NCBI GenBank assembly: GCA_949358305.1
Contig: OX442314.1
Location: 31,806,001-31,870,000, forward strand
Length of the DNA: 64,000 nt
Source: Strigamia acuminata
Taxonomy: Eukaryota
Direction of reading: 5' to 3'
The notes under the pieces: generated by a model
What the model was told of the DNA's origin: nothing
Seen by the model: the letters and a program-made list of their open reading frames with translations, nothing else
The model's database searches: none
Shown: positions 11,480 to 56,816 of the stretch, one piece after another
Layout: the number at the start of each line of letters is the position of its first letter
Numbering within the stretch: position 1 is the stretch's first letter
Translations under genes and position numbers: made by a program

Positions 11480-11481
11480 CG

Positions 11482-13072: not shown

Positions 13073-13076
13073 AACT

Positions 13077-28708: not shown

Positions 28709-30463
28709 TGTGATGATTACAAATCCGTATTTATCAATGTTCACAATAGATGGCGCTGTTTACCAAACGCGCGTAATTCAAACTCGATAAAACCAATAAG
28801 TGTGATAAATAATTATTTAGACACGGTGAATAAAATATAATTATTTTATTCGATATAAACTAAGTATTATTTACTTGACAATGTTGATTCTATCGAATCA
28901 ATATCCACATTACTTACCTGTCGAAGGGAACCAATTGGACCCTTCCTGCCCCCAACTGGGCCCATCTGGACATAGTCATATTTTAGGTCCGGACTAGTGA
29001 CCCACGAATCCGCCGATTCGTACGCTGATTGGCTGCCGCCGATCTAGTAGTTCTACAGAACTATATAAGCTCCAGTTTCTCACCCACTAACCCCCCTGGC
29101 TTGATAACTGAACTTGTATATTGTCTGTAGTTGAATTGTTATCGTTTGATTTCATTATTCTCTATCGACACATCAGGCCACCTCAGCTCTCCACAGTTAG
29201 TATTCATTACTATTTGTTATTGCTGTTGTAGGGCTATTTCGGGAAGGCTAACTCCGGTAATAGACATGCATTCGCATGAAATGGCCCCGTAACGTTAGCC
29301 AGCTGTTCTACGGGACAGTAGGACTTCGTACGGTGGCTTAATATAACGGTCGTATACAGTACGACCTTGCTAAATGAAAGTAGGTCCCTCAGCTAACTGG
29401 CCACAGTCCGCTGCAGGATGGTTGTTGTAAACAGCCCACGCAGGTTCCCGTCTTTCTACGATTGGTCCTTCCGCTCGTTAAAAGTCGGTAAAGGCCTAAT
29501 GCACAGGTAACACGCCGGGTTGGTAGCCCGTGAGTAATATCTTCAAGATGTTGCGATAAATAACTACCTGGATAATGGTAATCCAACGGCAGTGGCCAAA
29601 TAATATTTTACCCGGTGCTCGATCAATGGATCCCGTCATCGTAAGGCATGCTGGCGGATGGAGGAGTCAAATCCTCCCGCGATGGTTCTCTCGACCGTCG
29701 TGACGGTCCCCGCCCCATCGTACCCTCCGGGTTAGTAACCCGTGAACGATATATAAAATATATCGTGTTAAACAAATTACTCGGGCATTGGTAATCCTGT
29801 ATTGGCAATATCTTTTAAACCCGGTAAGTCCATAGAAATGTTTACCTGGTGGTTGGTACCACCGATAGCGAATTAAAGCGTACAATTAAATACTCGGCGC
29901 CTGATCACGAGATCTTGTCGTCGTAAGGCATGCTGGCGGATGGAGTCTCAACAACTCCCGCGACGTTCTCTCAATTGTCGTGACGGTCCCCGCCCAATTA
30001 ATATTTATATAACAATTCATTTGTTATATTCCATTAATCACTTTACTCTTATTCATTTGAAACAATGGAATATTCTGCCGAATATTCCTGTTTATGCGAA
30101 GGACTCTTCGCATATTTAGATAATCGAGCTGCGGACCAAATACGTCTCCGTAGCGCTATTTGTGACGATGCCGCAAGTCAGCCGTATCCCTCTGGCTTTG
30201 CCCGGATCCTCAACCAGTTGATGCCGCCGTTTACACGCGTCAAGAACCCACAAATTTTGTTATTATTATTCAGTAATAAATATGTTATGTCACACTAAGG
30301 AAACTGTAAGTTATTTCTGCTCAATCATGAATTCATATTTTTACACAGACTTCTGTAAGCTTATCTCGGTTAGGTTGTTGCTACTCCTAGCAACGTCTTG
30401 TTTAAACCGATTATTTATCTATCTTAAATGGCTATTAAATCAGCCAAAAGTAGAATCGTCACA
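28709..30463 (+). repeat. 5' LTR of B (1755 bp)
   Basis: TGTGATGATT...AATCGTCACA termini. Confidence 0.97.
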
Positions 30464-30465
30464 AG

Positions 30466-30483
30466 TGGAGGTTCTACCGAGAT
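30466..30483 (+). promoter_or_regulatory. Primer binding site, tRNA-Gln
   Basis: TGGAGGTTCTACCGAGAT. Confidence 0.8.
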
Positions 30484-31592
30484 AGGCTGCAAAAATTCAA
30501 ATGAATTTTGAAGTTTTGTGTGCCTATGATGAATTCGAGTAGTGTAATTTTTGCAGTAAAATTTTTGTGTGTAAAATAAATTTTGTTTGAAATTTATATT
30601 TGTGTTTAATATATTTTATTCTGTTTTAGAACTTCTCGCAAGAAAATAAGTGTAATTCACTTTATTCCGATTTTCCGTCGGAGAAATTATGTGTTTTAAC
30701 AAAACTAATAATTTCTACCGCGTGGTCAGGCCTAAAGGCCCAACCCCGAGAATAGGAGTCTTGCCCGAACTTGTTGAAGTTGGTTCCGCCCGGGTAACGT
30801 CATTTTGTCGTCGACAATCTGACAAAACCACGCGGTCGGGCCTAATTTTGAAAAGTTGACCTTCTGACAACATTCTTAAAGAATTCTATCAATTTAACAG
30901 TTGTTTTAATTTTAGAATATTCTTTTATATGTATTTGCTTGAGACTTCAAGTTAAACCTAAATTTATTTGCCTAAATAAATTAGAAAGAAAATTGACATT
31001 TTCGAAGGAATTAAAATTTATATTTTATTTCAAATGGTTTACCTTATTTTACAGACCTGATCTACATTAAAATGTTGGTTAAAATCGTGATCTCAAGCCA
31101 TTGAAATCGAATTTTACGAATGGAATACCATTCGAATTTTAGCGAAGAAGAATTCTCGCTGTTGTGTTGCCTAGCAACCCGTGTGGTGCAGAAAAGCCGT
31201 CGATTCAAACGAATCGGCGCGTCTTTTGAAATTACGAGTTTTAAAAAAAACCTTTAAAAAATTCCATAAAGGTGATCATTCATTTATTAATAAATGCGGT
31301 GATATTTTAAAAATACTTTGAAAAGTATCCATTTTGTTTGGTGACTACGTCATAACACTGGAATCTGTCAAGATTACGGTTCCACAAACTTGATGATTTC
31401 CACCAATCTCGGACGAGATTGGACTCTCGCGAGACTAGCGTTGATACTTGACCAATCAGAGAGGTGTATCGAAGTACCCATACTTTCATTCGAACTAGTG
31501 TGACCACTGCTTCGTTTGCGATCCTCCTGAACGTTTGCAACTTCATCGTTATCTCTCAGACTTAGGAAATTTTCTTGGTTTTAAGTTTAGTT

Positions 31593-33839
31593 ATGACTAA
31601 TAACCAGCATCACATGAACACCCGTGGTAAGGAAAGAACTTGTTTGACCGGTGGAATGAATCTATCTGGGTTTATACCTGTTCCTAATGGAACTGAAGAA
31701 GTGGAAAACCACGCGGTCCATAATGGCGTTTCAAATGAAACAGCCGGACCATCTGGAGAGAATAGGGCTTCACGTGAACCTACTCCGCCTGGAGAAGAGG
31801 AATGCATTCCTGAAGGTTCTCATTTAGGTCGAGGCGGTCTATTATTTTGTCAGGATCACGGTTTGAACCCAAACCAATTTAGATCTTTGACCGAAGTATT
31901 AGATTTTGTACACACGCGTCGTACTACGTCGGAGCAACCTAATTCCCCAGCCAGCCAAAGATTAAATAATTTTAGTCCCACTCCTTCGACGCCTATTTCT
32001 AGATATAGAAATAAAACTGCACAACCTCCTCGTCAAGATCAGTCGAATTTGACACCAGGAGATTTTAATCGTGCTTTTCAACAACGATTACGAGCGAATA
32101 ACTTCGCTCGCAACCAACAAAGGGGATTTACAAATCCCGGAAATTTTGAGAACACGTTCAATAGAGCGAATATGGGTCCGCCGAATATGGCCAATCCCAA
32201 TCCAAGTTTCCCAAACGGATCAAATAGTTGTCCGAATCTCGCTGGAAATTTGAATTCAAATTTAAATGTGACTAGAGGTCCAAACTACCGTTTTGATCCA
32301 AATTCTAGATTTGCAAACAATTCTAGTCCCGCACCTAACTTGCAAAAGGGTCACCCAGTTCCTCCGAACTCGAATAACCCAAATAATCCGAACGATTTAA
32401 ATAATCCTTCTACTGGAACTCCAGGAAATTCAAATAACTATTTGAATCGGGGTACGCCAGGTAATTCGAACTATCGTCCGAATTTTGGTAATCAAGAAAG
32501 TTCGAACAACCGTCCGAATTTTGACAATCAGGGTAATTCTAATAATCATTCGAATTATGGGAACCAAGGCAATTCGAATAACCATTCAAACTTTGGTAAC
32601 CACGGTAGGTCAAATCAAGGAGGGTCGAATAATTTCAACCCCAATAGTGGTGGCTCAAGTCAAAATAACTCGAGTCAACCAAACAATGGCGGATCGTCAA
32701 ACGACAACTCGCGCCCCCCCAGTAGCTTTGGAATGACGGCTGATGACCTCGCGTCCATTGCCACGACCATGCACAAGTTGATGCAGGCAGGAAAAAGTTC
32801 CGCCACTGTCCCTCAAACTAACTGTTTGAAACCGCCAGATATCCCTGTATTCTCCGGAAAAGCAGAAGAAAGCGAACGCTTTCTCAACATTGTAAAAAAT
32901 GTCGCTTTCCTGCGAAACATGTCACTCGATGACATGCTTGTTAAAGGCGTAGCCGGTTATCTAACCGAGCAAGCGCATGGTTGGTTTCATGAAAGGAGAG
33001 AAGATTTCATATCTTGGGAAGTATTTGAACAGGCGTTCAAAGAGCGGTTTGTAGCCACTCGACAAGAGCGGACGAACCAACTAACTAAGTTGAAACAACT
33101 GGAAACAGAAAGTCTTTACGACTTTATGCACAAATATTACCAGTTATGGATATTACAAGACAGTCTTGATGCAAAAGGGGCTGGATGTCTTTTTATCGGG
33201 AGTGTAACTCCTGCTAATGATTTGCTTTTGCATACGCAAGGCATAGCGGATTTACCTCTGACAGAGATTTATACCGTTATAACGAAAAATAAAGGTTTGT
33301 ACAGTCGTACAGCTAATGGAGCAAGGGAAAATATTTCCAATCCAGTTGTTTTCCCACCTCGGAAAACTGACACTCGTCCTCAGCCGAAGACAAATGCTAA
33401 ATCTTTAACTTTGGATTCACAAGAACAACTTAATATTTGTGAGGAAGAGTTACCTGAGGAGTGCGAGGCTGTTTATTTAATAAATGGAGTAGTAGATCAG
33501 ACCAGACGTGGTCAATTAGTTTGTTACCACTGTAAGAAACCAGGACACATGCGTCGAGAATGTCCAGATTTAAAACCACGTGCAAATTTCAACTCTGAAG
33601 AGTTGCAAAAACGAAGTACCCCGGATTCCTCGACTGTGGATCCTACTTCTAAACGTCCTAATAACAGATGGATAACTCAAGAAGTGTTGGATGCAACACT
33701 AGATGCTAAACTTGATGCGAAACTTAATACTTTTGAAAATAAGTTACAAACTTCGCTGACTAACTCGTTGGCAGAAATGGTCAAGACTTTGATCAAGCCC
33801 GAATCTGCTGATTCAAGTGCGACTAGTTCAAAAAACTAG
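31593..33839 (+). CDS. gag: Gag of B (Asn-rich disordered N-half, capsid, CCHC)
   Basis: IPVFSG..FL..AHGWF segment; CYHCKKPGHMRREC knuckle. Confidence 0.93.
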   Translation: MTNNQHHMNTRGKERTCLTGGMNLSGFIPVPNGTEEVENHAVHNGVSNETAGPSGENRASREPTPPGEEECIPEGSHLGRGGLLFCQDHGLNPNQFRSLTEVLDFVHTRRTTSEQPNSPASQRLNNFSPTPSTPISRYRNKTAQPPRQDQSNLTPGDFNRAFQQRLRANNFARNQQRGFTNPGNFENTFNRANMGPPNMANPNPSFPNGSNSCPNLAGNLNSNLNVTRGPNYRFDPNSRFANNSSPAPNLQKGHPVPPNSNNPNNPNDLNNPSTGTPGNSNNYLNRGTPGNSNYRPNFGNQESSNNRPNFDNQGNSNNHSNYGNQGNSNNHSNFGNHGRSNQGGSNNFNPNSGGSSQNNSSQPNNGGSSNDNSRPPSSFGMTADDLASIATTMHKLMQAGKSSATVPQTNCLKPPDIPVFSGKAEESERFLNIVKNVAFLRNMSLDDMLVKGVAGYLTEQAHGWFHERREDFISWEVFEQAFKERFVATRQERTNQLTKLKQLETESLYDFMHKYYQLWILQDSLDAKGAGCLFIGSVTPANDLLLHTQGIADLPLTEIYTVITKNKGLYSRTANGARENISNPVVFPPRKTDTRPQPKTNAKSLTLDSQEQLNICEEELPEECEAVYLINGVVDQTRRGQLVCYHCKKPGHMRRECPDLKPRANFNSEELQKRSTPDSSTVDPTSKRPNNRWITQEVLDATLDAKLDAKLNTFENKLQTSLTNSLAEMVKTLIKPESADSSATSSKN

Positions 33840-33870
33840 ATCCGGGGGACGAAGGTTTATTCCATCCCCC
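33830..33870 (+). promoter_or_regulatory. -1 frameshift signal (A AAA AAC plus GGGGGA/TCCCCC stem)
   Basis: pol frame is open from 33836. Confidence 0.8.
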
Positions 33871-36800
33871 AGAAGTAGCTAATGCTACATCGGAGACTTT
33901 ATTTATGGATGTAGACACTGTTTGTCTAGACACAGCCACTAGTCATAGTGGCGGAGTAGAGGAAAATCTGCAAGAAATGACAGAACAATTAAAAAATCTG
34001 ACATTGTTTCCACACAAGTGCTACACGAAGAAATTCTGTAGACTCCGCCGACTCAATCGAGTCATAGGTGGTAACAATTTGCACAATATTACTTTAGGTA
34101 ATAATAAAGATGATCCTCGAATGAAGATCACAATTGGTGGGCTCACCTTCAACGCGCTCATGGATACAGGAGCATCTCAATGTTACATCGGGGAACAACT
34201 CTTGTCTGAAACTCAGGCTTTGCCAGAATTTTTGCAAGAGGCCCCCAGAAATATGTTGGTTAACGCTGTAGGCGTAGCACACAAGCCTGTCGGACAAATA
34301 ACTTTGTGCGTGCAATGGGCTGATGAATTTACACCAATGAATTTCATCGTTTTAGCAAAACGAGTTTGTGGCTTGATACTTGGTCACAATTTCATGCGCA
34401 GACAGAAAATTAGTCCGCATCCACATTTACAAGAGTTCTCTTGTGCAGATAAACCTAATTGGTCCGCTCCTTATGAATCGGAAGAAGCCAATTTGGCCCT
34501 CGCCCCGTTAAATCGAATTACATTTGATTATTTAGGACTGTCGTCCACTCTCAACTCAATTGAGTTAACAGACACTCCTGTGTTGACTTGGGATGAAAAA
34601 TTAGTTGAGGAGAGCGACTGCACTCCGGAACAAAGACTAGCACTTCGCGAAGTGGTTAACTCGATACCGAATGTATTTCGTGATCAAGTTGGGTGCACTA
34701 ACGTGACCCAACATCGTATTAAGTTTAAAGAAGGGCATTCATTGCCCAAAATGCAGTATAGAATGTATAACCCGGCCAAGAGAGCCATTATGACCAAACT
34801 AGCTGCAGAATTGGAACAGGATGGACTCATTGAAAAGGCCAAAGGGCCCTTCATAAGTCATCCCGTCATTGTTGCGAAGCCTGACGGCTCGTATAGGATG
34901 TGCATTGACTACCGGTGGCTAAATGCCATCACTGAAGTCGAAGTAATACAAATGCCAAGTATTGACCTTTTGTTGCATAATACTGGTCTGGCAAAGTATT
35001 TTACGTCTATTGACCTTGTTAAAGGTTACTACCAAGTCGAAATGTGTGAAGAAGATCGTCCAAAAACGGCGTTTTATACGCCAAACGGCCCTTATCAATT
35101 TGTGCGAATGCCGTTCGGCCTTTGCAATGCGCCTTGTACTTTCCAGCGTCTGATGGAAGGCATTTTAGGCTCAGCTTTGCAAGACTACGCGTTAGTTTAT
35201 TTGGATGACGTAATTGTGTATTCAGATAATTGGGATGATCATCTCAAACATGTTCGAGATGTTTTGGAAAGGCTTAACCAAGCCAACATGACAATAAATA
35301 AAGCGAAATCTCGTTTTGGGCGTACAGAATTAAAATTCTTGGGCCACTGGATTAAACCCGAAGGTCTCTTCGGTGATCCCGATAAAATATCGGCGATCAT
35401 GAAATTTCCCACCCCCACGTGTGCTAAAGACATTCAACGCTTTCACGGCATGACTAACTTCTTCAGGAAGTTTGTTCCAAATCACGGAACTATTGCCGCA
35501 CCATACACTCGTATGATGAATGAGAAAACTCCATTTGAATGGGGAGATGAGCAGACAGTAGCTTTTAATAAAATTAAAGAGCTACTTTGTGGTGACAATT
35601 GTCTACACAAACCAGATATGACTTTGCCATTTGTTGTCATGACTGACGCTTCACATGAAGGCTTAGGAGCTGTCCTTTGCCAAGACGTCGATATATTCGA
35701 TGAAAAGAAGCAGAAAAACATTTCTGTACCCAGACCTGTAGCTTATGCAAGCAGAGTTTTACGTGGAGCGGAGAAGCGTTATACAACGCCGGAACTCGAA
35801 TGTCTCGCAGTCGTGTGGGCTATTGATCGATTTAAACCATATCTCGAATATGGTACATTCACTTTAGAGTCAGATGCAGAAGCACTGAAATGGTTGATGC
35901 GAACGCCTGAACCATCTGGGAAATTTGGCCGATGGGCCTTAAGAATCCAATGTGGAAATTTTAAAATTGTTTTTCGAAAAGGTGCTGCTAACCAAGTTGC
36001 AGATGCACTTTCTAGAGCCCCACTAACAGAGGAAGACATTCCTCTTCGTGATCATGTGGAACCTGTTGAAATTAAACAATACTGGCCTGAGTGGGACGGA
36101 AATCCTTCTGTTTCATTAAATCGTGCCCCAGAGAAACGAGAATATTTGGCTAGTGTGCGTGTCCATTTTTCAGAAAATTCTAAAGAATGTTCTGAAGAAA
36201 AGGAGGGGGAGGAAGTACAAGAAACCTTGTACAGTGCGTTGACTGAAGTACTTAAAGAAGTCCCTCCTACAAGGAGAGAAATAATAGATGCTCAGTTACT
36301 AGATACTGAATGCAAACGCATTCGAGAATATTTATTGAATGACAAGGTTGTTGGGATACCACAATCTGAAATAAAAGAATGGAAAAACAAAGTCAAAAAC
36401 TATTGTTTAGACAAAAAAGAAGTTGATGGTGATCAAATGATCATCTATTTTAACCCTTCGTTCGAAGAGGAATTAAACGATTCGGGAAACGGCTTTAAAG
36501 CCGTTGTACCCAGTTCACTCGTAAAACGAGTACTCTTCGCTTGTCATGGCCACCCCCTAAGCGGTCACGCTGGGATGAGTAAGACGCTTGAGAAAACGCG
36601 TTTAATATATTTCTGGCCTGGTATGAGTAGAAGTGTCAGGAACTACGTCAAAAGCTGCACGCACTGTGCTCAGTACAAGCCTATTCAACAGAAAAGGCAC
36701 GCAGCTCCTTACACACCACACAACATGACCAATCCTTGGGAATGTATTAACATGGACTTGATGGGCCCGAAACCCGCGGGAAGGTCCCAAAACCAGTATA

Positions 36801-38035
36801 TCTTTGTCATTATTGACAATTGTACCAAGTTCGTTGAAATTAAGGCTTTGACAAAAGCCACGAGCGCTAACTGCGTTCAAGAATTAAGATCTGTTACAAA
36901 CAGATGGGGACACCCCAAAAAGATTGTGAGCGATAACGGAAAACAATTTGTTTCCGATATTTACAATGAGTATTGCGAAATGTACAACATTCGCCCGTCC
37001 CATACAAGCACGTATCATGCCCAGGCGAACCCGACAGAGCGAGCCAATAGAGATATAAAGACGATGCTGGCCCTGTACACAGATGTGCACACGCAATGGC
37101 CACGTTATTTAGACGAATTTGCGTTTGCAATGCGAAATAATGTGTCATCGGCAACGGGATCAAGCCCGATGCTGCTTAACACGGGAAGGATCGTAACATT
37201 ACCTTTCGACCCAAGGATTATTAAACATGCCAATCCATTTGACAAAGAAAATCCAGAAAAATATGTCAGAGTACTATTGGATGTATTGCGCAGATCACAT
37301 CAAGAGATGCATCGCAGAATTCAATTGAATTTTGAACGACATAGGAAAATACACGAACAGAAGTTCGTAATTACGGAGTTCGAAGTTGGAGATTTAGTTT
37401 GGAAACAGACTCACATTCTCTCGTGCGCAGATAAAAATATCTCCGCTGGATTTGCCGAGAAGAGAGATGGACCGCGGGAAATTACTAAAGTACTTCCTGG
37501 CGGAGCGTATAAATTACGCAAATTAGCTGATGGTTCGATTGAAAAATCAGTAAATATTAAAGCGTTGTACCCCTATACGCCTTCATACCCGATTGAGACG
37601 TGGAAAGTAGGACAAAAGTCCGCCTCTTACTCGCCTCAAGAAAATCCTAAATGGATGGACGAAAGTAATCAACTTCCGGATGCTGAGGAAATGGAATTAA
37701 TTCCTGAAACTTCCTCAGAAATTCCAATGGAATTATCCGACTCAACTTCAGTGCAGATTGACAAATCTGCGCCCACAAAGTCTAAACATAGACATAGACA
37801 ACGCTTAACTGCTATGGAAAGGAAAGCGGCGTTAAAAAGAGGCGAAGTTCCAAAGAAACCGCCTCGAAAACCCCGCAAACCCCAACCGATAGTTCCACGA
37901 ACTAGCACTCGTCCACGACGAGAACGAAAACCAAATCCTAAATATGCAGATGAAAATTTCGTGCGAAACATCACTGCAGTATTTAAAAAACCTTACCAAC
38001 AACGAGGAAAAGCCTCAAAGTTCTGTTGGAATTAA
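33836..38035 (+). CDS. pol: Pol of B (protease-RT-RNase H-integrase), intact
   Basis: LMDTGA, YLDD, TDAS; HHCC motif (HGHPLSGHAG..CTHC); DDE core (MDLMGP, SDNG, TERAN). Confidence 0.96.
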   Translation, partial: LDPGDEGLFHPPEVANATSETLFMDVDTVCLDTATSHSGGVEENLQEMTEQLKNLTLFPHKCYTKKFCRLRRLNRVIGGNNLHNITLGNNKDDPRMKITIGGLTFNALMDTGASQCYIGEQLLSETQALPEFLQEAPRNMLVNAVGVAHKPVGQITLCVQWADEFTPMNFIVLAKRVCGLILGHNFMRRQKISPHPHLQEFSCADKPNWSAPYESEEANLALAPLNRITFDYLGLSSTLNSIELTDTPVLTWDEKLVEESDCTPEQRLALREVVNSIPNVFRDQVGCTNVTQHRIKFKEGHSLPKMQYRMYNPAKRAIMTKLAAELEQDGLIEKAKGPFISHPVIVAKPDGSYRMCIDYRWLNAITEVEVIQMPSIDLLLHNTGLAKYFTSIDLVKGYYQVEMCEEDRPKTAFYTPNGPYQFVRMPFGLCNAPCTFQRLMEGILGSALQDYALVYLDDVIVYSDNWDDHLKHVRDVLERLNQANMTINKAKSRFGRTELKFLGHWIKPEGLFGDPDKISAIMKFPTPTCAKDIQRFHGMTNFFRKFVPNHGTIAAPYTRMMNEKTPFEWGDEQTVAFNKIKELLCGDNCLHKPDMTLPFVVMTDASHEGLGAVLCQDVDIFDEKKQKNISVPRPVAYASRVLRGAEKRYTTPELECLAVVWAIDRFKPYLEYGTFTLESDAEALKWLMRTPEPSGKFGRWALRIQCGNFKIVFRKGAANQVADALSRAPLTEEDIPLRDHVEPVEIKQYWPEWDGNPSVSLNRAPEKREYLASVRVHFSENSKECSEEKEGEEVQETLYSALTEVLKEVPPTRREIIDAQLLDTECKRIREYLLNDKVVGIPQSEIKEWKNKVKNYCLDKKEVDGDQMIIYFNPSFEEELNDSGNGFKAVVPSSLVKRVLFACHGHPLSGHAGMSKTLEKTRLIYFWPGMSRSVRNYVKSCTHCAQYKPIQQKRHAAPYTPHNMTNPWECINMDLMGPKPAGRSQNQYIFVIIDNCTKFVEIKALTKATSANCVQELRSVTNRWGHPKKIVSDNGKQFVSDIYNEYCEMYNIRPSHTSTYHAQANPTERANRDIKTMLALYTDVHTQWPRYLDEFAFAMRNNVSSATGSSPMLLNTGRIVTLPFDPRIIKHANPFDKENPEKYVRVLLDVLRRSHQEMHRRIQLNFERHRKIHEQKFVITEFEVGDLVWKQTHILSCADKNISAGFAEKRDGPREITKVLPGGAYKLRKLADGSIEKSVNIKALYPYTPSYPIETWKVGQKSASYSPQENPKWMDESNQLPDAEEMELIPETSSEIPMELSDSTSVQIDKSAPTKSKHRHRQRLTAMERKAALKRGEVPKKPPRKPRKPQPIVPRTSTRPRRERKPNPKYADENFVRNITAVFKKPYQQRGKASKFCWN

Positions 38036-39095
38036 TAAGTTTTATTCAAAACTCAAAGACTGTAATTATTTACATGTCTGACAGGTGTAGTGATTTATAA
38101 TCTCAACACCGGGGGACAAGATATTACGATATTTATGGAAATTTAAATTAAAAATATGAATTTGTTGCGATGAATTAAATATTCGATAGAATACTTTAAT
38201 TTTTGGTCGTATTTAGAAGTATTCTAAATAATATACGGAGAATTACTTTGAAAAGTGATAATCTCGCCTCTTCACGAGGATACGAGACTTACGAGGTGTG
38301 ATTAAACCTCGAACCCGACAATTAATAGGGAATAAAATTCCCAGGGTTCTTTGCACCAAACACTTCGTAACACACGTGGATACAAGTTGACTTCGTCTCT
38401 TCGCTTCCGCTTCACTTTTCGACTCAGAAATTTCAGCGCTAATTCAATTAGCAACTTCAGTAAAAGCAAGGAAAACAAGCTTCAACAGTAAGTAGTTTTC
38501 GAAATTATTCTTTGACCAAAGAATTACAAAAAATTGTTCGCAACAATTGAAAAAATATCGGCGTCCCGATAAAAGTTAGAAATTCACGTGTCGTTATAAG
38601 CGTGAATCGGCATTAAATCACTCTGGAAGTTTAGCTATTCAGTCGAATAGTTGGGTTAAATATTAATAATGAATTATTAAGATTTAAGTACGTAGGCACT
38701 AATTATTTAAATCAAGTCGCGGTCGAGGCTTGTATAAATTATTTGGCGATGAATTTTCGATGTAAGATATTTATTAGACTAAGTGTTAATTAATTAATAC
38801 GAAAGTTATTTTTGATACTCGAAAGTTGGATTAAATAGTTTAAAGAAACTAAAAGAATTTTTTCTTTTGAAAAATCAACAAGTTGCGATTTTCGATGAAA
38901 ATCCCTGTCGGCGAGTCCATTCTCGTGTCATAAACACAAGGGGAATGTGACTCATTAGTGTCACGTGTTAAGGGTTATAAATAACTCGAGTTGTGTATTT
39001 TCGTTGCGAACAATACGTTTTAAATTCTTTGGACTCAAGGAATGACTATTTAGAGTGGAATTATTTTTAATAAAATAATTTATTTGCTTGTGCAG

Positions 39096-40613
39096 ATGGG
39101 AGGTGGTAAACACCGTTCAAAACGGAGTCATCGACGTCACCGTCACGAAAGCTCCAGCTCGTCCACCTCGTCTAGTGACGAGCAACGCCGTTCAGCGGAA
39201 CGTGCTTACATGAGGGCCCAACCGATACCGACGGCGCCCGCCTCGATGTACGCCCTGACGCCGCTGCAACTCGCAACGCTTAATTGGCTGAGCGTCCATC
39301 CGGACGGACTTCCGCTCGAATTGAATTCGATGATGCAGGCCCCGTCCACATCTGCGCAGCCAACCGTTTATGAGTCGGCGCAATTGGCCCCGTTGGCCCA
39401 GGTGGCACATCCGCCCGCGAACGTTATCAACGTCCCGTTGGCCCCGCATTCAACAGAATTTCGGCCGCCAACTGCGAGCGTGGCGCCTACCGTCGCCAAC
39501 ACGTCGAATGCGACTGCACCAACTGTAGCGGGACAATCAACGTCTGATGTACGTCTTCCTGCCGGTGCTGAATCTTCGGCATCCGAATACGGATGGAACG
39601 AGCCGCCGCCGGGCGCTTTGCGTTTTTCAGAACCCGTATCTCGCAACCGCGAGTACCGAGCAGCCAACAAGGCAAGGAAGAAAGACGAGAAGGCCCGTTT
39701 GCGCAAGGAGCAATGCGAACGTGACATGGCAGCTGGAATTCCGCACGATAACATCGTGACCGACCAAGCCACGGAGACGATCTGCCCATTTTGCGTCGGC
39801 TGTGGGTGGTGCTGCGGTGCATCCGCAGGTTCTTCACTAATGCGTTGTCCGAACTGCCGTGGAAGGAAAACGCGACCGCGTTTGGAGCCTTGGAGAAAGG
39901 AGGTTCAGCCCCACGTAGTGAAAGGCATTAAGCCTAACGAGAAGCGATGTTGGGCTCACTGCCCCAAGTGTCGATTGTTTTTGAACAGCCGCGGCGAGGC
40001 TGTGTACATCGACCCACGCTTCCTCACCTGGACCCGTGCTGAAGCCAACGCCGGCGTAAGAGTCGAACTCCTTCGACAGTCACCGCCGCCGTCCGAGGAC
40101 TCTGAAGTTTCTACTGAAACTGTCCAGGCCGCCGAAAGCATTGGAAGCGAGGTCGTAGAAGAAAACGTTCGACCGAAAACGATGTCGCGTGGTCGAGGCT
40201 GTCTGACGCTCGACCGAGCGAAAGAAATTGCCAAGGTTCAACGAACCAACATCTTGGCACGAGGGCGAGCCCGTAAGCTTCAACAGGCCGTAGAAGCGTC
40301 GTCCAAAACCGTGGAGGATCCTCCGGCGGCAGTAACCGACGTGTCTAGCGCCCCTCCGGCTTCTAAGTCTGAAACTTCGGACGAGGCACAGTTCGAAGAC
40401 GCCGAGGAGATGATTTCTGTCATCGATTTCGTGGCGGAATTGCTCGAGGATCTACCGTTCCCACCTCCGAGCCCAGAGGAAATTGAAGCGCCGGAGGAAG
40501 CTGTGTTTTCCGCCGTCTCGACAGAGGCGACTGAAGAGTCGGATTTTCTGACTTCTGCTGAAGTCGAGAAGAAGGAAGAGAAAGATTCGACTGACGTCGA
40601 AAAGAAGAAATAG
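39096..40613 (+). CDS. Accessory ORF3 of B, Cys-rich putative zinc-binding protein (non-Env)
   Basis: ATG directly after a TGCAG acceptor; CPFCVGCGW..CPNCRG..WAHCPKC..AVYIDP. Confidence 0.8.
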   Translation: MGGGKHRSKRSHRRHRHESSSSSTSSSDEQRRSAERAYMRAQPIPTAPASMYALTPLQLATLNWLSVHPDGLPLELNSMMQAPSTSAQPTVYESAQLAPLAQVAHPPANVINVPLAPHSTEFRPPTASVAPTVANTSNATAPTVAGQSTSDVRLPAGAESSASEYGWNEPPPGALRFSEPVSRNREYRAANKARKKDEKARLRKEQCERDMAAGIPHDNIVTDQATETICPFCVGCGWCCGASAGSSLMRCPNCRGRKTRPRLEPWRKEVQPHVVKGIKPNEKRCWAHCPKCRLFLNSRGEAVYIDPRFLTWTRAEANAGVRVELLRQSPPPSEDSEVSTETVQAAESIGSEVVEENVRPKTMSRGRGCLTLDRAKEIAKVQRTNILARGRARKLQQAVEASSKTVEDPPAAVTDVSSAPPASKSETSDEAQFEDAEEMISVIDFVAELLEDLPFPPPSPEEIEAPEEAVFSAVSTEATEESDFLTSAEVEKKEEKDSTDVEKKK

Positions 40614-41353: not shown

Positions 41354-43107
41354 TGTGATGATTACAAATCCGTATTTATCAATGTTCACAATAGATGGCG
41401 CTGTTTACCAAACGCGCGTAATTCAAACTCGATAAAACCAATAAGTGTGATAAATAATTATTTAGACACGGTGAATAAAATATAACTATTTTATTCGATA
41501 TAAACTAAGTATTATTTACTTGACAATGTTGATTCTATCGAATCAATATCCACATTACTTACCTGTCGAAGGGAACCAATTGGACCCTTCCTGCCCCCAA
41601 CTGGGCCCATCTGGACATAGTCATATTTTAGGTCCGGACTAGTGACCCACGAATCCGCCGATTCGTACGCTGATTGGCTGCCGCCGATCTAGTAGTTCTA
41701 CAGAACTATATAAGCTCCAGTTTCTCACCCACTAACCCCTCTGGCTTGATAACTGAACTTGTATATTGTCTGTAGTTGAATTGTTATCGTTTGATTTCAT
41801 TATTCTCTATCGACACATCAGGCCACCTCAGCTCTCCACAGTTAGTATTCATTACTATTTGTTATTGCTGTTGTAGGGCTATTTCGGGAAGGCTAACTCC
41901 GGTAATAGACATGCATTCGCATGAAATGGCCCCGTAACGTTAGCCAGCTGTTCTACGGGACAGTAGGACTTCGTACGGTGGCTTAATATAACGGTCGTAT
42001 ACAGTACGACCTTGCTAAATGAAAGTAGGTCCCTCAGCTAACTGGCCACAGTCCGCTGCAGGATGGTTGTTGTAAACAGCCCACGCAGGTTCCCGTCTTT
42101 CTACGATTGGTCCTTCCGCTCGTTAAAAGTCGGTAAAGGCCTAATGCACAGGTAACACGCCGGGTTGGTAGCCCGTGAGTAATATCTTCAAGATGTTGCG
42201 ATAAATAACTACCTGGATAATGGTAATCCAACGGCAGTGGCCAAATAATATTTTACCCGGTGCTCGATCAATGGATCCCGTCATCGTAAGGCATGCTGGC
42301 GGATGGAGGAGTCAAATCCTCCCGCGATGGTTCTCTCGACCGTCGTGACGGTCCCCGCCCCATCGTACCCTCCGGGTTAGTAACCCGTGAACGATATATA
42401 AAATATATCGTGTTAAACAAATTACTCGGGCATTGGTAATCCTGTATTGGCAATATCTTTTAAACCCGGTAAGTCCATAGAAATGTTTACCTGGTGGTTG
42501 GTACCACCGATAGCGAATTAAAGCGTACAATTAAATACTCGGCGCCTGATCACGAGATCTTGTCGTCGTAAGGCATGCTGGCGGATGGAGTCTCAACAAC
42601 TCCCGCGACGTTCTCTCAATTGTCGTGACGGTCCCCGCCAATTAATATTTATATAACAATTCATTTGTTATATTCCATTAATCACTTTACTCTTATTCAT
42701 TTGAAACAATGGAATATTCTGCCGAATATTCCTGTTTATGCGAAGGACTCTTCGCATATTTAGATAACCGAGCTGCGGACCAAATACGTCTCCGTAGCGC
42801 TATTTGTGACGATGCCGCAAGTCAGCCGTATCCCTCTGGCTTCGCCCGGATCCTCAACCAGTTGATGTCGCCGTTTACACGCGTCAAGAACCCACAAATT
42901 TTGTTATTATTATTCAGTAATAAATATGTTATGTCACACTAAGGAAACTGTAAGTTATTTCTGCTCAATCATGAATTCATATTTTTACACAGACTTCTGT
43001 AAGCTTATCTCGGTTAGGTTGTTGCTACTCCTAGCAACGTCTTGTTTAAACCGATTATTTATCTATCTTAAATGGCTATTAAATCAGCCAAAAGTAGAAT
43101 CGTCACA
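41354..43107 (+). repeat. 3' LTR of B (1754 bp)
   Basis: Repeat of 28709-30463. Confidence 0.97.
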
Positions 43108-43332: not shown

Positions 43333-44367
43333 CTAACCCAACTTGACTTGTTTTAAACAATTTATGAGTTGTACAAAATCGGTCACGTATTTTGTGTTCG
43401 GCTTGGGTCTACGTTTAGACTGTCGAACGGGAGATGGAAATCTTTTCCTCTTTTTAGATGGATTTTGAGGAGTTTCGTCCTCTTTAGAAGAAATCTGAGA
43501 AGTTTCCTCCTCTTTCTCTTCAACTAAATCCTCTGTTTCCATGGACACAGGTTCATTTATTAATTCTGGAGAATTAATAACCTGACCTGCCATCCAATCT
43601 GGAGTCGGGTGTGACTCGTTGGTACCGACTTTCTGATCTAATGTCCATTCCTCAATCGGGTAACTTGGGATATAAGGCATTAAATCCTGTATGTTGATCG
43701 CTTTTGCTTTCGTGTTATCGGAAAGCTTCCGTAGTGTGTAGGAACCTCCGCCGAGAACAGCCGTAATTTCCCAAGGTCCATCACGTTTCTCAGCGAATCC
43801 TGCCGAAATCCCTTTATCTTTATTCGATAAAATATGTGTGGCTTTCCACACGAGATCTCCTTTGGCAAATTGACAAATATAATATTTGTCTTTATGTAGT
43901 CGATCATGCTTTTCGTAATTCGATTGAATTTTCCGATGCATTTCGCTGTGTGCACGTCTAATTACGTCTAAAATGCTGTAGACGTAGGCTTCGGGGTTCT
44001 CTTTGTCGAATTTGATGGCGTGTTTAGTAATACGCGGGTCAAATGGCAAAGGAACGATTCTTCCCGTATTAAGAATCATCGGAGAACAATTTGTTGCCTC
44101 GGACTTAGCGGTGCGCATCGCAAAGGCAAAAGAATTTAAATATTTTGGCCAGTGGGAGTGAATGTCCGAGTATAAAGCTAACATCATTTTTAAAGTCCTG
44201 TTAGCCCGCTCTGTAATATTAGCGGCAGCGTGATATGGGCTAATGTGAGCAATATCTACGTGATTTTTTCGACAAAAATCATTAAATATTGTCGACACGA
44301 ATTGTTTGCCGTTGTCGGAGATTATCTTTTTTGGATATCCCCAACGGTGGAAAACTTCGCTCATCTT
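43333..44367 (-). pseudogene. pol: C-terminal integrase fragment of A pol
   Basis: SDNGKQF..TERAN..RDGPW; joins in frame to 49050 once C and one TSD are removed. Confidence 0.92.
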
Positions 44368-47300
44368 TGTGGTGTAGTGTTTACCTGTTTGATGTCAAAG
44401 ACCGCCACGAGAGGGCGGCATTGTATGACGAGATTATAAAGGTGTGAGAGAGGCAATAAACATCCAGTTTGGAATCAGATGATGAATGGAAATGTGTGTG
44501 TGTGTCATTGACATTGGGACATATAGATGGACATTACATTGGCGACAAGCGGGATAATTTTGTATCGGGAACGTTTGACGGACAATTGAACGTGTGAGTT
44601 ACGATTTTGTGCGGACGTCGGCGTGTTTGAACTTTTTCCAAGATGGCGGAGACGAAGCCGGTGGTGGGCGTGGCGCCGGGACCAGCTAGTTTCGTGCAAG
44701 CGCTGGGGCTGCCTGCTTTTGACGTTCACGGAGAGGCGACAACGCAGAACCAACGTTGGACCAGATGGGTGAAACGTCTGGAGACGTATATGGTCGCCGC
44801 GGGAATAACTGATGATGCGAGGAAGGCGGCGATGTTACTTCATCATGCAGGCGAGGAGGTGTTCGTGATATACGAAACGCTTACGTTGGCGGACGGTAAA
44901 TATGAGACTATTAAAACTGGGCTAGCAGCATATTTCGCACCGAGAAAAAACGTGGAATTTTGCAAATATAATTTTCGGATGAGTAGCCAGAGGGCGGGCG
45001 AGACGCTGGACGAATTCCGCACGCGTTTGAAGCAGTTGTCGGTCGGATGCGATTTTGTGGACGATAATATGGAAATTAAATCGCAGATCATCATGGGAAC
45101 GTCGATGGGTCATTTGCGTCAGCGAGGTCTTCGAGAGGCGTCGTGGGTTTTGAAGGATTTGTTGGATGCGGGCCGTGGATATGAAGTCTCTGGGTGGCAG
45201 GCCAAACAAATGGAGGCTGTGAGTAATTCGGATGAATTAGACATTAATTTGGTTCGTTTTGGCAATTCCAGACGTGGTACGGACAAAGGAAGTTTCTCGA
45301 AGGGAGGTGGACAGGTTAGGAGATGTTTCAACTGCGGGAGGAATTGGCCGCATGCGGAGGGACAGGTGTGCCCCGCGAAGAGTGTTAAATGTCATGGATG
45401 CGGCAGAGTTAGACATTTCATCAGGTTTTGTAAAAATAAGCAGGATGGTAAGGAGGATACGAAGCAGAAGGTTAATGTCGTGGATAAAGCGTCGGGCCGA
45501 GACGATAGTTTTGAGGATGAGATGCCGATTTGGAATATTGGCCAAGTTGGTTCACAGGAAGGAATGCCAAAGGTGGAGTTGCTGATGGGAAAACAAAAGG
45601 TGAAAATCTTGTTTGTGGTGGACTCGGGTACGTCGGTGAATATTTTAAGTAGGGAGGTTTTTAGACAATTGAGACCGGTGCCGGAGTTAAGGAGGAGTGA
45701 TGTTCGATTGTTACCATATGGGGCGACGGAGCCGTTTCCTTTGTTGGGGCGTATGAAGACGAAGTTGGAAGTCGGAGACGGAGAAGAGATTGTGGTGGAT
45801 TTGTTTGTGGTCGACCGTCCAGGGGAATCGTTGTTAACTTACGAGACGGCGCGTCGTTTGGAAGTTATTGGACCTGTTAACAGCGTGGTACAAAGGGATT
45901 TAGCGGCGCAGATAGAGGGTCAATATCCGGAACTTTTTTGTGGGATAGGAAAGTTGGTTGGACGGCAAGTTCACTTGCACGTGGATGAGTCGGTCCCGCC
46001 GGTGGCTCAGAGATATAGGCCATTACCATTCAATTTACGAAGGAAGGTAGAAAAGGAGCTGAAGCGGTTGGTGGATATGGATATCATTGAGCGAGTGGAT
46101 GAGTCGATGGGGCCCACATCATGGATTTCACCGATACACGTGGTCGACAAACCGAAGGATCCAAATCCGGATGCGATTCGCATCTGCATGGACGCTAGGG
46201 AGGTGAATCGGGCAATTAAGCGGGTGAGGCACACGTCCCCACGTCTGGAGGATCTTATTGCGATGGCCGAGGGAGCGACTGTGTTTTCAAAGCTAGATTT
46301 AAACCATGGATTTCACCAGTTGGAATTAGACGAAGTGTCGCGCCAATACATGGTTTTCGCGACGCATGTTGGTTTATTTCGTTTCAAGCGCTTGGGTTTC
46401 GGAGTAAATTCAGCGCCAGAAATCTTTCAGGATTCCGTAGAAAAGGTGATTGAGGAGGTGGATAACACCATAAACATTATGGATGACATCTTTGTGGTTG
46501 GTAAAAAGGACAGTGATCATGGAGTGGCGCTACACGGAGTTTTACGGAAACTTAAGGAAAAAAAGCTCACGTTGAATAAGCAGAAGTGCGAGTTCGGAAA
46601 GAAGGAGTTGGTGTTCTTTGGACATGTATTTTCGGAGCAGGGGATCGCTGTCGACCCAAAGAAAGTTGAAGCAGTGCTCAAAATGGAAACACCAACGAAT
46701 GCGGGGGAAGTTAAAAGTCTGCTTGGGATGATTGTTTATTGCGCGCGATTTGTGCGTAACATGGCCGATAAAACGAAGGCTCTGAGAGATTTGACAAAGA
46801 AGAGCGTGGTATTTGCGTGGAAACCGGAACATCAAAGTGCGTGGGAATATGTAAAGCGAGAGCTGAGCAATAATGAGATTTTGGCCTATTATGATTCGAC
46901 GGCGAAAATCCATTTGACAGTCGACGCGGGTCCGCACGGATTGGGGGCGATTTTGGCTCAGCTGCGAGAGGGAGAAGTTGAACCACGGGTCGTTGCGTAT
47001 GCTAGTAGAGCATTGTCTGAGGTGGAATCACGGTATTCGCAGATAGAAAGAGAGACATTGGCGGTTGTTTGGTCGGTGGAACATTTCTACTTATATTTGT
47101 ACGGGACGACGTTTGTGATTTTCACAGATCATAAACCGTTGGTGAGCATCTTTAATAACCGTAGAGCGAGACCATCGGCGAGGATTGAACGCTTGTGTCT
47201 TCGGATACAACAATACGAGTTCGAGGTTCGACATACAACAGGAGCCACGAATCCGAGTGATTATTTATCACGACATCCGGGGACACGGTTGGGATTGACA

Positions 47301-49044
47301 GAGAAGGTGGTCGAGCGATATGTGAATTTTGTGGTGGAGTCGCGGTTGCCGACAACAATAACGAGAGATGAGGTGGTTCGGGAGACTGGAGGGGATGAGG
47401 TTTTGCAATTGTTGAGGAAAGCTTTACACGGATTGGGAGGTGAAGGGGAGAAGCTGTGGCGAGATGAGCGGCTGAAACCATTCACGATGATGAGGGATGA
47501 GTTTACGAGTACGGAGGATGGTATTCTATTGCGAGGGGATCGAATTTTAATCCCGGAATCGTTGAGATCGAGAGTGGTAGAGATAGCGCATAGAGGACAT
47601 CAAGGAATAGTGAAAACGAAGAGTTTATTGAGGGAGAAGGTGTGGTTTCCGGGCCTGGATAGGCGAGTCGAGCGGAGGATCGCACAATGTGTGCCGTGTC
47701 AAGCTAGTTTGGTGGTTTCGCGGAGAGAACCTTTGCAAATGACTGTACTGCCAGAAAGACCATGGCAGAGGTTGGCGATGGATTTCCTCGGGCCATTTCC
47801 AGATGGGAGAATGTTGTTGGTGATCGTTGACGAATATTCGCGTTTCCCATTCGTTGATGAGGTGAATTCTACGGCGGCAAGGACTGTAATTCCTGTTCTT
47901 GAGAAGAGATTTGCAGAATTGGGCATTCCGGAGTCGATCAAATCGGATAACGGTCCTCCATTCGCTTCAGAGGAGATGCGAGTTTTTATGGACAGTTCGG
48001 GGATACGACACAGAAGGGTGACCCCACTATGGCCGGAAGCGAATGGAGAAGTTGAAAGAATGATGCGGACTTTGAACAAAGGAATACTTACAGCGGTAAC
48101 AGAGGGAAGAGTGTGGAGTAAGGAGATTCACGAATTTCTTTTAAATTATTGTGCGACTCCACATTCAACAACGGGTGTGGCACCGGCGAAATTGCTATAT
48201 CAGCGAGCATTACAGACGAGACTGCCACAGAATTTTGAGAAAGTAAATGATGAGACAGTGCGACAACGAGATGAGGAAGGAAAGGAGAAGATGAAGCTGG
48301 AGGCAGATGATCGAAGGAGAGTATGCCCGCATGGTTTGACGGTCGGTGATCAGGTCTTGGTAAGAAGACGGAAAACAAATAAGTTAATGACCCCATATGA
48401 CCCTGAGTTGATGACGGTGGCGAAGGTCGAGGGCTCGCGGATTACAGCCAAGCGAGGACAATATCAGGTAGTAAGGAATTCCTCGTTCTTCAAAAAGATA
48501 GAGCGAGAGGTGGATGATGGAGAGGAAACAGAAAATGGTGAGATGGAGCAGTCGGTGTTGGAGGAGGAGGAGGGGATGGTCGAGAGAGAAGAATCCCAAC
48601 AACCTGGTGAAGTTCAACAACCGATTGTCCAGCAGGCCATTGAACAGCAGCAACAGATAGTGAGCCCGGAACGAACGAGACCAGTGCGTGAGCGACGGGA
48701 ACCGGACCGATACACGAATGCGAAGGCGTCAGTGAAACGAAAATGAATTTGAACATTGTATTTTATTGTTTATATTGTGATGCTGATTCTGAGTTTATTT
48801 GATTTCAATTTTGTTTAAGTATGATTCCGAATTTTGATGTGAATAGATTTATGTTATTGTAAGGGGGAAGGGATGTGGTGTAGTGTTTACCTGTTTGATG
48901 TCAAAGACCGCCACGAGAGGGCGGCATTGTATGACGAGATTATAAAGGTGTGAGAGAGGCAATAAACATCCAGTTTGGAATCAGATGATGAATGGAAATG
49001 TGTGTGTGTGTCATTGACATTGGGACATATAGATGGACATTACA
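44368..49044 (+). mobile_element. Gypsy element C, Mag-like, intact, 4677 bp
   Basis: Identical 171-bp LTRs at 44368-44538 and 48874-49044; ATCTT TSD; PBS TGGCGAC at 44540; PPT AAGGGGGAAGGGA. Confidence 0.96.
44643..48746 (+). CDS. Single Gag-Pol polyprotein of C
   Basis: Double Cys knuckle, VVDSGT protease, MDD RT, RNase H, HHCC/DDE integrase. Confidence 0.96.
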   Translation: MAETKPVVGVAPGPASFVQALGLPAFDVHGEATTQNQRWTRWVKRLETYMVAAGITDDARKAAMLLHHAGEEVFVIYETLTLADGKYETIKTGLAAYFAPRKNVEFCKYNFRMSSQRAGETLDEFRTRLKQLSVGCDFVDDNMEIKSQIIMGTSMGHLRQRGLREASWVLKDLLDAGRGYEVSGWQAKQMEAVSNSDELDINLVRFGNSRRGTDKGSFSKGGGQVRRCFNCGRNWPHAEGQVCPAKSVKCHGCGRVRHFIRFCKNKQDGKEDTKQKVNVVDKASGRDDSFEDEMPIWNIGQVGSQEGMPKVELLMGKQKVKILFVVDSGTSVNILSREVFRQLRPVPELRRSDVRLLPYGATEPFPLLGRMKTKLEVGDGEEIVVDLFVVDRPGESLLTYETARRLEVIGPVNSVVQRDLAAQIEGQYPELFCGIGKLVGRQVHLHVDESVPPVAQRYRPLPFNLRRKVEKELKRLVDMDIIERVDESMGPTSWISPIHVVDKPKDPNPDAIRICMDAREVNRAIKRVRHTSPRLEDLIAMAEGATVFSKLDLNHGFHQLELDEVSRQYMVFATHVGLFRFKRLGFGVNSAPEIFQDSVEKVIEEVDNTINIMDDIFVVGKKDSDHGVALHGVLRKLKEKKLTLNKQKCEFGKKELVFFGHVFSEQGIAVDPKKVEAVLKMETPTNAGEVKSLLGMIVYCARFVRNMADKTKALRDLTKKSVVFAWKPEHQSAWEYVKRELSNNEILAYYDSTAKIHLTVDAGPHGLGAILAQLREGEVEPRVVAYASRALSEVESRYSQIERETLAVVWSVEHFYLYLYGTTFVIFTDHKPLVSIFNNRRARPSARIERLCLRIQQYEFEVRHTTGATNPSDYLSRHPGTRLGLTEKVVERYVNFVVESRLPTTITRDEVVRETGGDEVLQLLRKALHGLGGEGEKLWRDERLKPFTMMRDEFTSTEDGILLRGDRILIPESLRSRVVEIAHRGHQGIVKTKSLLREKVWFPGLDRRVERRIAQCVPCQASLVVSRREPLQMTVLPERPWQRLAMDFLGPFPDGRMLLVIVDEYSRFPFVDEVNSTAARTVIPVLEKRFAELGIPESIKSDNGPPFASEEMRVFMDSSGIRHRRVTPLWPEANGEVERMMRTLNKGILTAVTEGRVWSKEIHEFLLNYCATPHSTTGVAPAKLLYQRALQTRLPQNFEKVNDETVRQRDEEGKEKMKLEADDRRRVCPHGLTVGDQVLVRRRKTNKLMTPYDPELMTVAKVEGSRITAKRGQYQVVRNSSFFKKIEREVDDGEETENGEMEQSVLEEEEGMVEREESQQPGEVQQPIVQQAIEQQQQIVSPERTRPVRERREPDRYTNAKASVKRK

Positions 49045-56812: not shown

Positions 56813-56816
56813 AACT

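What the first reader, a model, noticed from the sequence alone, without database searches (positions are those of the whole stretch)
39096..40613. Conserved non-Env third ORF with an unrecognised Cys-rich domain in two Gypsy families
Seen: both A (25969-27678) and B carry a 500-570 aa sense ORF between pol and the 3' LTR. The flanks are unalignable low-complexity sequence (Arg/Ser N-terminus, acidic C-terminus). A ~100-aa core is conserved: RDM..NI..CPxCxGCGW-x13-CxNCxG..W..E..P..VKG..WAxCxxC..A[IV]Y[VI]DP. I see no signal peptide or transmembrane segment, so it is not an errantivirus Env. Known: CxxCxGxG resembles DnaJ-type zinc-finger repeats. Inference: a selected accessory protein, possibly anti-silencing or a nucleic-acid/chromatin regulator, defining a ~14 kb tRNA-Gln-primed lineage.
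Basis: partly seen in the sequence, partly recalled or inferred. Interest (0 to 1): 0.85.

Follow-up and report, generated by a model that had tools for sequence, protein, structure and literature searches.

The report
Zinc-finger accessory gene in Gypsy retrotransposons
Two jumping-gene families in this window carry, where an envelope gene usually sits, an extra gene under strong selection with a cysteine-rich, likely zinc-binding core that is also found in centipede relatives, and it likely regulates the element's own RNA in the nucleus.

Summary
Elements A (13.9 kb, minus strand) and B (14.4 kb, nested inside A) each carry a separate sense ORF of 556 and 505 aa between pol and the 3' LTR. 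The two share a 105-aa core (35% identity, E 5e-20). Among copies of B, 36 of the 40 best-supported core variants are synonymous against 11.2 expected, so the protein is under purifying selection. The only convincing homologues are four Strigamia maritima (centipede) gene models; three place the core downstream of a related Gypsy integrase. Corrections: the conserved motif is three CxxC pairs (the Cys of 'GCGW' is not conserved), and the flanks are not all unalignable, because A shares a second C-terminal domain with the centipede protein. It fails the Env tests run here and matches no Pfam family, solved structure or Atlas cluster; structure models were low-confidence. Function is inferred, not shown: most likely a nuclear zinc-binding regulator of the element's RNA (CERV/Rev-like, 0.4), with transcriptional or anti-silencing action close behind (0.3). 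Verdict: a new accessory-protein family in a known kind of slot. Repbase, Dfam and GyDB could not be searched.

The parts
39096..40613 (+). ORF3 of element B, 505 aa: basic/Ser/His-rich N-terminus, Pro/Ala/Thr-rich linker, basic helix plus Cys core, acidic tail
39702..40016 (+). Conserved core of ORF3-B (residues 203-307)
   Evidence: blastp to ORF3-A E 5e-20; 36 of 40 listed variants in 39660-40060 synonymous
39783..39863 (+). First two CxxC pairs (C230/C233 and C251/C254), DnaJ/Anti-TRAP-like spacing; predicted single zinc site
   Evidence: invariant in 6 of 6 aligned cores; weak Anti-TRAP score; zinc binding inferred
39960..39971 (+). Third CxxC pair (C289/C292), without a conserved partner pair in the monomer
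   Evidence: kept in 5 of 5 sequences that reach it
39078..39095 (+). Splice-acceptor-like site (pyrimidine tract plus CAG) directly before the ORF3-B ATG
   Evidence: sequence; use not shown
38488..38493 (+). Donor-like GTAAGT 608 bp upstream of the ORF3-B ATG (A has one 539 bp upstream); weak, expected by chance in 36% and 28% of shuffles
28709..30463 (+). Element B 5' LTR
30466..30483 (+). Element B primer-binding site (tRNA-Gln label recalled, not tested)
31566..33839 (+). Element B gag (Retrotrans_gag, zf-CCHC), stop-to-stop
33827..38035 (+). Element B pol in the -1 frame, order PR-RT-RH-IN
41354..43107 (+). Element B 3' LTR
25969..27639 (-). ORF3 of element A, 556 aa
26782..27093 (-). 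Conserved core of ORF3-A
26299..26520 (-). Second conserved domain of ORF3-A, shared with centipede P0016 and not detected in ORF3-B
55222..56812 (-). Element A 5' LTR
55202..55219 (-). Element A primer-binding site
52292..54424 (-). Element A gag, stop-to-stop
43333..52322 (-). Element A pol, interrupted in the integrase by element C (44368-49044)
23792..25397 (-). Element A 3' LTR (98.4% identical to the 5' LTR)

Best explanation
ORF3 is a selected accessory gene of one Ty3/Gypsy lineage, and its product is likely a nuclear, zinc-binding regulator that would act on the element's own RNA, most likely by helping unspliced genomic RNA escape splicing or nuclear retention, as CERV and Rev do. 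Shown: the gene, its position, its conservation across families and in a centipede, purifying selection on the core, and the lack of Env features. Inferred steps: (1) it is translated from a subgenomic, probably spliced mRNA, because 10 ATGs lie between the pol stop and the ORF3-B start and an acceptor-like site abuts the ATG; (2) the first two CxxC pairs bind one zinc ion in a DnaJ/Anti-TRAP-type hairpin, and the unpaired third CxxC may share a zinc ion between two subunits; (3) the basic, Ser/His-rich N-terminus and the basic helix before the zinc module take it to the nucleus and contact RNA; (4) the variable C-terminus recruits host factors.
For: Selection: 36 of 40 listed core variants synonymous, 11.2 expected, maximum 24 in 1,000,000 simulations, pN/pS about 0.04; 3 of the 4 non-synonymous calls share a codon with a second listed variant and together keep the residue; no indel listed in the core in 3 of 3 covering runs. 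Linkage to the lineage: 3 centipede gene models hold pol or integrase pieces followed by the core; their integrase is 55-63% identical to A and B and 25-28% to element C, which has no ORF3. Composition: basic N-terminal block (+7), basic core block (+11), acidic tail (-24 over residues 401-500) in B. Acceptor-like site at the ATG. Precedent: CERV of Cer1 is a 517-aa nuclear protein from a spliced mRNA whose Cys loop is needed for genomic RNA export (PMC10309623, abstract, sections 9 and 15, passages).
Against: No RNA run was available, so splicing and expression are not shown. No sequence or fold link to CERV, Rev or any RNA-binding family: Pfam best hits are below cut-off; CERV has different Cys spacing (C193, C195, C200, C269) and lies in the gag region. 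Export-signal-like patterns occur at about chance level (4 vs 2.3 in B, 6 vs 4.4 in A) and B has no 4-residue classical NLS pattern. A has no equally clear acceptor at its ATG. The acidic tails fit a transcriptional activator equally well. Structure models were low-confidence (mean pLDDT 53 and 46).
Confidence: 0.4

Rival explanations
1. ORF3 acts on transcription or chromatin: it binds the LTR or an internal promoter and activates it, or removes silencing marks from its own family (foamy-virus Tas-like or plant VANC-like; both comparisons recalled).
For: Zinc module plus acidic tail; both pol-ORF3 gaps are over 1 kb and hold CACGTG boxes and a donor-like site, compatible with an internal promoter; internal promoters after pol are known in Oikopleura Tor elements (PMC4402516 passages); S. 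maritima methylates transposon regions and a Copia family there captured an MBD (PMC6673714 passages).
Against: No match to any DNA- or chromatin-binding family above cut-off; the A and B gaps share no blastn match at E 0.05; the donor-like sites are near chance level.
Confidence: 0.3
2. ORF3 is a counter-defence adaptor that binds and neutralises a host restriction or small-RNA factor, as zinc-binding viral accessory proteins such as Vif do (recalled).
For: Small conserved zinc core with fast-changing flanks and a C-terminal domain present in A and the centipede protein but not B; DnaJ/Anti-TRAP-type zinc modules mainly bind proteins (established knowledge).
Against: The core is under strong purifying selection rather than rapid change; no ligase-recruiting motif was identified; the neighbouring BTB and cullin genes lie outside the elements and give no support.
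Confidence: 0.17
3. The core is an integration-targeting or particle-associated domain, made as an integrase fusion by splicing, like a chromodomain or CopiaMBD.
For: All three long centipede gene models join pol pieces to ORF3 in one predicted protein.
Against: The three models join at three different places in pol, as expected of gene-prediction artefacts; in the window ORF3 has its own ATG more than 1 kb after the pol stop in both families.
Confidence: 0.08
4. ORF3 is a highly diverged envelope or fusogen for cell-to-cell spread.
For: It occupies the env slot and has an acceptor-like site; A has one hydrophobic window of 1.75 near the C-terminus.
Against: Charged N-termini with no signal-peptide-like stretch; no transmembrane-like segment in B; 2 and 0 N-glycosylation sequons; CxxC pairs typical of intracellular zinc sites; no Env family in Pfam.
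Confidence: 0.03
5. The ORF is a captured, non-functional passenger.
For: Flanks diverge quickly.
Against: pN/pS about 0.04 in the core, intact in two families whose pol is 55-64% identical, and present in a centipede lineage.
Confidence: 0.02

Closest known systems
CERV of C. elegans Cer1 (Gypsy/Ty3 LTR retrotransposon; PMC10309623)
   Same: About 500-aa non-Env accessory protein of an animal LTR retrotransposon with an essential Cys-rich, possibly C4 zinc-binding region; divergent flanks; no homologues outside its host group.
   Different: CERV is spliced from the gag region and shares exons with gag; its Cys spacing is CxC-x4-C-x68-C and it has a G-protein-like domain. ORF3 sits after pol and has three CxxC pairs. 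No homology was detected or directly tested.
Errantivirus and Tor Env (third ORF between pol and 3' LTR; PMC4402516)
   Same: Genomic slot, sense orientation, about 500 aa, probable subgenomic mRNA.
   Different: No signal peptide, no conserved transmembrane segment, almost no glycosylation sequons, no Env family match.
Plant additional ORFs between pol and 3' LTR (Retand TRP28, Grande, RIRE2; PMC11963269)
   Same: Lineage-wide conserved extra ORF after pol, proposed to be regulatory; Grande's product is nuclear.
   Different: Those are mostly antisense, plant-specific and carry TRP28 (PF04195); this one is sense, found in an arthropod lineage, and has no Pfam family.
MDG1-group sORF1 and sORF2 (bioRxiv 10.1101/2025.03.14.642691)
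   Same: Selected accessory ORFs of arthropod Gypsy elements without env; sORF1 is nuclear with unknown function.
   Different: They are 70-110 aa and lie upstream of gag; sORF2 is a membrane fusogen.
CopiaMBD of Strigamia maritima (PMC6673714)
   Same: Accessory domain in an LTR retrotransposon of the same centipede in which the ORF3 homologues occur.
   Different: Copia, host-derived recognisable MBD with shown DNA binding; ORF3 is Gypsy, a separate ORF, with no recognisable host source.
DnaJ central domain (PF00684) and Anti-TRAP (PF15777) zinc modules
   Same: CxxCxGxG-like pair spacing in the first half of the core.
   Different: Scores are below cut-off; the repeats are degenerate (CxxCxxxGW, CxNCxG), there is only one pair of repeats, and a third unrelated CxxC follows.

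Membership tests
Ty3/Gypsy LTR retrotransposon (elements A and B) | pol order protease-RT-RNase H-integrase | tested here: met
   Pfam domain order in B pol and A pol pieces
Ty3/Gypsy LTR retrotransposon (elements A and B) | TG...CA LTRs, primer-binding site, polypurine tract, target-site duplication | tested here: met
   the purine tracts are short (a G5 run next to each 3' LTR)
Ty3/Gypsy LTR retrotransposon (elements A and B) | RT phylogeny placing it in a named clade | not testable with these tools
   no reference RT set on hand; viral-contig scan with the B RT region found no relative
tRNA-Gln-primed lineage | PBS complementary to the host tRNA-Gln 3' end | tested here: inconclusive
   A and B sites 16/18 identical; identity as Gln recalled; no tRNA gene in the window and no genome held
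Errantivirus/Tor-type Env | N-terminal signal peptide | tested here: not met
   hydropathy scan only, no SignalP; both N-termini are charged
Errantivirus/Tor-type Env | conserved C-terminal transmembrane anchor | tested here: not met
   B maximum 1.12; A has one window of 1.75 that is not shared
Errantivirus/Tor-type Env | homology to a fusion-protein family | tested here: not met
   no Env or fusion family at E up to 1 for either full ORF
sORF2/FAST fusogens | small protein with a central hydrophobic helix followed by a polybasic region | tested here: not met
   505 and 556 aa, no shared hydrophobic helix; description
CERV | Cys loop C193/C195/C200/C269 and H, M, G domains; encoded in the gag region | tested here: not met
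   different Cys spacing and position; the CERV sequence itself was not aligned
CERV/Rev-like function | nuclear protein needed for export of unspliced genomic RNA | not testable with these tools
   needs localisation and knock-down
DnaJ central domain / Anti-TRAP | score above the curated cut-off | tested here: not met
   Anti-TRAP 18.7 bits vs cut-off 32, matched by 4 of 5 members at E up to 10; DnaJ chain E 2
DnaJ central domain / Anti-TRAP | shared fold | tested here: inconclusive
   models too poor in this region; no Foldseek match at E 0.001 in PDB or BFVD and no VIA Z of 2 or more
Plant TRP28 additional ORF | PF04195 domain, antisense | tested here: not met
   sense ORF, no PF04195 match

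The most novel reading that the evidence does not exclude
A centipede-associated Gypsy lineage has replaced the envelope gene with a dedicated regulatory gene, as complex retroviruses did: a new zinc-linked oligomeric protein family that switches on or shields its own elements in an arthropod that methylates transposons. It would be an animal LTR-retrotransposon counterpart of Rev, Tas or plant VANC, with a fold not yet described.
Probability: 0.35. Interest if true: 0.8.

Novelty: new variant of a known kind. Interest (0 to 1): 0.6.

Why it matters
Very few accessory proteins of animal LTR retrotransposons other than Env have a known job; CERV is the main example found in these searches. This family is intact, young (LTRs 98.4-99.7% identical), multi-copy and strongly constrained, and its relatives occur in an arthropod known to methylate transposons. 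It offers a direct test of whether retrotransposons encode their own RNA-export or anti-silencing factors, and its core may be an undescribed zinc fold. It also explains four mis-annotated UniProt centipede gene models.

Tried and rejected
Word-index protein searches with the B core (177 candidates) and the two-sequence profile (1028 candidates) found nothing; the exhaustive search and the five-sequence profile did. Of 10 hits, 3 are accepted; 7 were dropped as repeat or composition matches (P0005, P0006, P0007, P0009, P0010) or generic DnaJ-type zinc repeats (P0011, P0012). Viral and metagenome contig scans: no relative. No whole genome held. ESM Atlas: no usable hit for either protein. PDB sequence searches: nothing credible (the PPR hit is a sum of weak repeats). 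AlphaFold models were low-confidence and only the first was fold-searched, with no match. Complex prediction of a homodimer was not available. The second domain of the centipede protein was not scanned against Pfam on its own; the whole A protein had no family and P0016 lists only integrase families. Sequencing runs: no RNA holder listed; run X6 did not cover the core. The joint 30484-37318 looked like an ORF3-only deletion derivative but falls on a look-alike of about 19 bases, so it was set aside. The antisense ORF 39368-39904 does not explain the variants better (23 vs 36 synonymous). Earlier findings: none returned. Nine paper searches listed no paper that describes this ORF in title or abstract start; no supplements were read, and Repbase, Dfam and GyDB entries could not be searched.

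Full report
Anatomy. The window holds three nested Ty3/Gypsy elements. Element A runs on the minus strand from 56812 to 23792: 5' LTR, gag, pol, ORF3, 3' LTR, about 13.9 kb once the nested elements are removed. Its two ends carry the same 4-bp duplication, so the ORF at 27639-25969 belongs to it. Element B (28709-43107, plus strand, 14,399 bp) is inserted between A's pol and A's ORF3; its LTRs are 99.66% identical. Element C (44368-49044, 171-bp LTRs, one gag-pol ORF, no third ORF) interrupts A's integrase. Pfam gives protease, RT, RNase H, integrase in Gypsy order. A and B share 55-64% pol identity, 31% gag identity, the last ten LTR bases, a 16/18 identical primer site and an A6C run before the gag stop with pol in the -1 frame. 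The tRNA-Gln label is recalled.

The observation. ORF3-B is 505 aa and ORF3-A 556 aa. Both are GC-rich islands (57% and 54%) in flanks of 28-32%. They align over 105 residues at 35%, E 5e-20.

Selection. Four public runs were laid on 39660-40060; three covered it, all as contigs, and one may be the source sample. The tool listed the 40 best-supported of 67 variants. Scored one at a time against the window codon, 36 are synonymous; 11.2 are expected if the same substitution types fall at random, and 1,000,000 simulations reached at most 24. 33 of 40 are at third codon positions. Three of the four non-synonymous calls share a codon with another listed variant and the pair keeps the residue; their phasing is suggested by similar depths, not shown. 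No indel was listed in the core. Limits: 27 rows were not shown, contigs had to be 80% alike, and this is not a codon-model test. For scale, the best-supported rows over the whole element gave 8 of 13 synonymous in gag, 8 of 11 in pol and 3 of 4 in ORF3.

Homologues. An exhaustive profile search of 1.84 billion representatives gave 10 hits at E up to 0.001; three are true relatives (E 3e-30, 6e-28, 9e-10), all Strigamia maritima gene models: T1IMA5, T1IH97, T1IU31. A second profile search added T1IRW1. The three long models read protease or integrase first and the core later. The integrase of T1IRW1 is 55-63% identical to A and B and 25-28% to C. So the core travels with this pol lineage and lies downstream of it in another assembly. 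The three models join pol to ORF3 at different points, which points to gene-prediction artefacts rather than a real fusion. The genomic context of T1IU31 is unknown. The host of the window is not known; transposon ORFs are usually masked in annotations, so the narrow range is weak evidence.

The protein. In six aligned cores the invariant positions are R, A, C-x2-C, G-W, C-x-N-C-x-G, W and V; a third CxxC is kept in the five that reach it. The first two pairs resemble DnaJ and Anti-TRAP zinc repeats but stay below cut-off. Six conserved cysteines make one and a half four-cysteine sites, so the third pair may share zinc between subunits; this is inference and the dimer could not be modelled. 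Outside the core, A shares a second domain with T1IRW1 (z 14.8) and weakly with T1IH97 (z 3.0, 22 of 2000 shuffles); B lacks it (z -0.1) but its N-terminal part follows T1IH97 (z 7.0). The core of T1IRW1 is closer to B (46%) than to A (32%). The gene is thus old in the lineage and modular. No Pfam family, PDB sequence, Atlas cluster or fold matched, but the models were poor (pLDDT 53 and 46), so a new fold is not shown.

Not Env. Both N-termini are charged, B has no window above 1.12, and sequons number 2 and 0. Against this, A has one window of 1.75 near its end, not shared with B. No dedicated signal-peptide or membrane predictor was run.

Expression. Ten ATGs separate B's pol stop from ORF3, so a subgenomic mRNA is likely. 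A pyrimidine tract plus CAG abuts B's ATG; it ranked second of 11 acceptor-like sites in the gap, and A has no equally clear site at its ATG. Each gap has one GTAAGT about 540-610 bp upstream and CACGTG boxes, but GTAAGT appears in 28-36% of shuffles. No RNA holder was listed.

Mechanism. I commit to a nuclear regulator of the element's RNA (0.4): the basic, Ser/His-rich N-terminus recalls RNA-processing factors (own knowledge), the gene looks spliced, and the one worked-out precedent found, CERV, is a Cys-rich 517-aa export factor (PMC10309623: abstract, sections 9 and 15, passages). A transcriptional or anti-silencing role is nearly as likely (0.3), given the acidic tails and transposon methylation in S. 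maritima (PMC6673714: passages). Counter-defence adaptor 0.17, integrase fusion 0.08, Env 0.03, passenger 0.02. Nothing here separates the top three directly.

Known versus new. Extra ORFs after pol are known in plants (PMC11963269: passages), Tor elements express env from an internal promoter (PMC4402516: passages), MDG1 elements have small accessory ORFs (10.1101/2025.03.14.642691: passages), and accessory domains in retrotransposon polyproteins are reviewed in PMC6338049 (first quarter read). None of what I read describes this family, and nine searches listed no paper on it; most listed papers were seen only as listings, no supplements were read, and curated repeat databases were out of reach. 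Verdict: real, selected, a new protein family in a known kind of slot; interest 0.6.

Noticed in passing
window 5887-20235 and 49627-64000: A 14.4-kb segmental duplication at 99.7% identity; it copies A's 5' LTR, gag and part of pol together with the flanking BTB and cullin genes. The left copy of A is cut off in pol at 5887. Could be a recent duplication or an assembly artefact.
   Followed up: partly
window 13016-20840 and 56756-64000 (minus strand): Intronless BTB-BACK-Kelch-like gene (587 aa, poly-Asp tail) next to an intronless cullin gene, with a paralogous fragment beside A's 5' LTR. The cullin is split over two frames in the left copy (18817-20070 and 19782-20840) and open in the right copy as far as the window goes. 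High CpG observed/expected (1.4-1.6).
   Followed up: partly
window 44368-49044: Element C: compact 4.7-kb Gypsy with identical 171-bp LTRs, 5-bp target duplication, a single 1371-aa ORF and strong G skew; a very recent insertion into A's integrase.
   Followed up: partly
window 5023-5488: GC-rich array of 53/106-bp units with internal inverted repeats, just left of the truncated A copy; 3059-3246 and 3837-4020 form a 94% inverted pair. Unexplained.
   Followed up: no
window 55956-56233, 24526-24803, 12216-12493: The A LTR holds tandem repeats of 113 and 43 bp; A and B LTRs share a short motif near their 5' ends and their last ten bases despite otherwise unalignable sequence.
   Followed up: no
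window 39053-39735 (table 5): One contig each in runs X1 and X2 skips 681 bases, removing the ORF3-B start and N-terminal part; low depth, probably a deleted copy.
   Followed up: no
proteins P0003, P0004, P0016 (UniProt T1IMA5, T1IH97, T1IRW1): Annotated as retropepsin or RNA-directed DNA polymerase proteins of Strigamia maritima, but they appear to be gene-model fusions of Gypsy pol pieces with this ORF3.
   Followed up: yes
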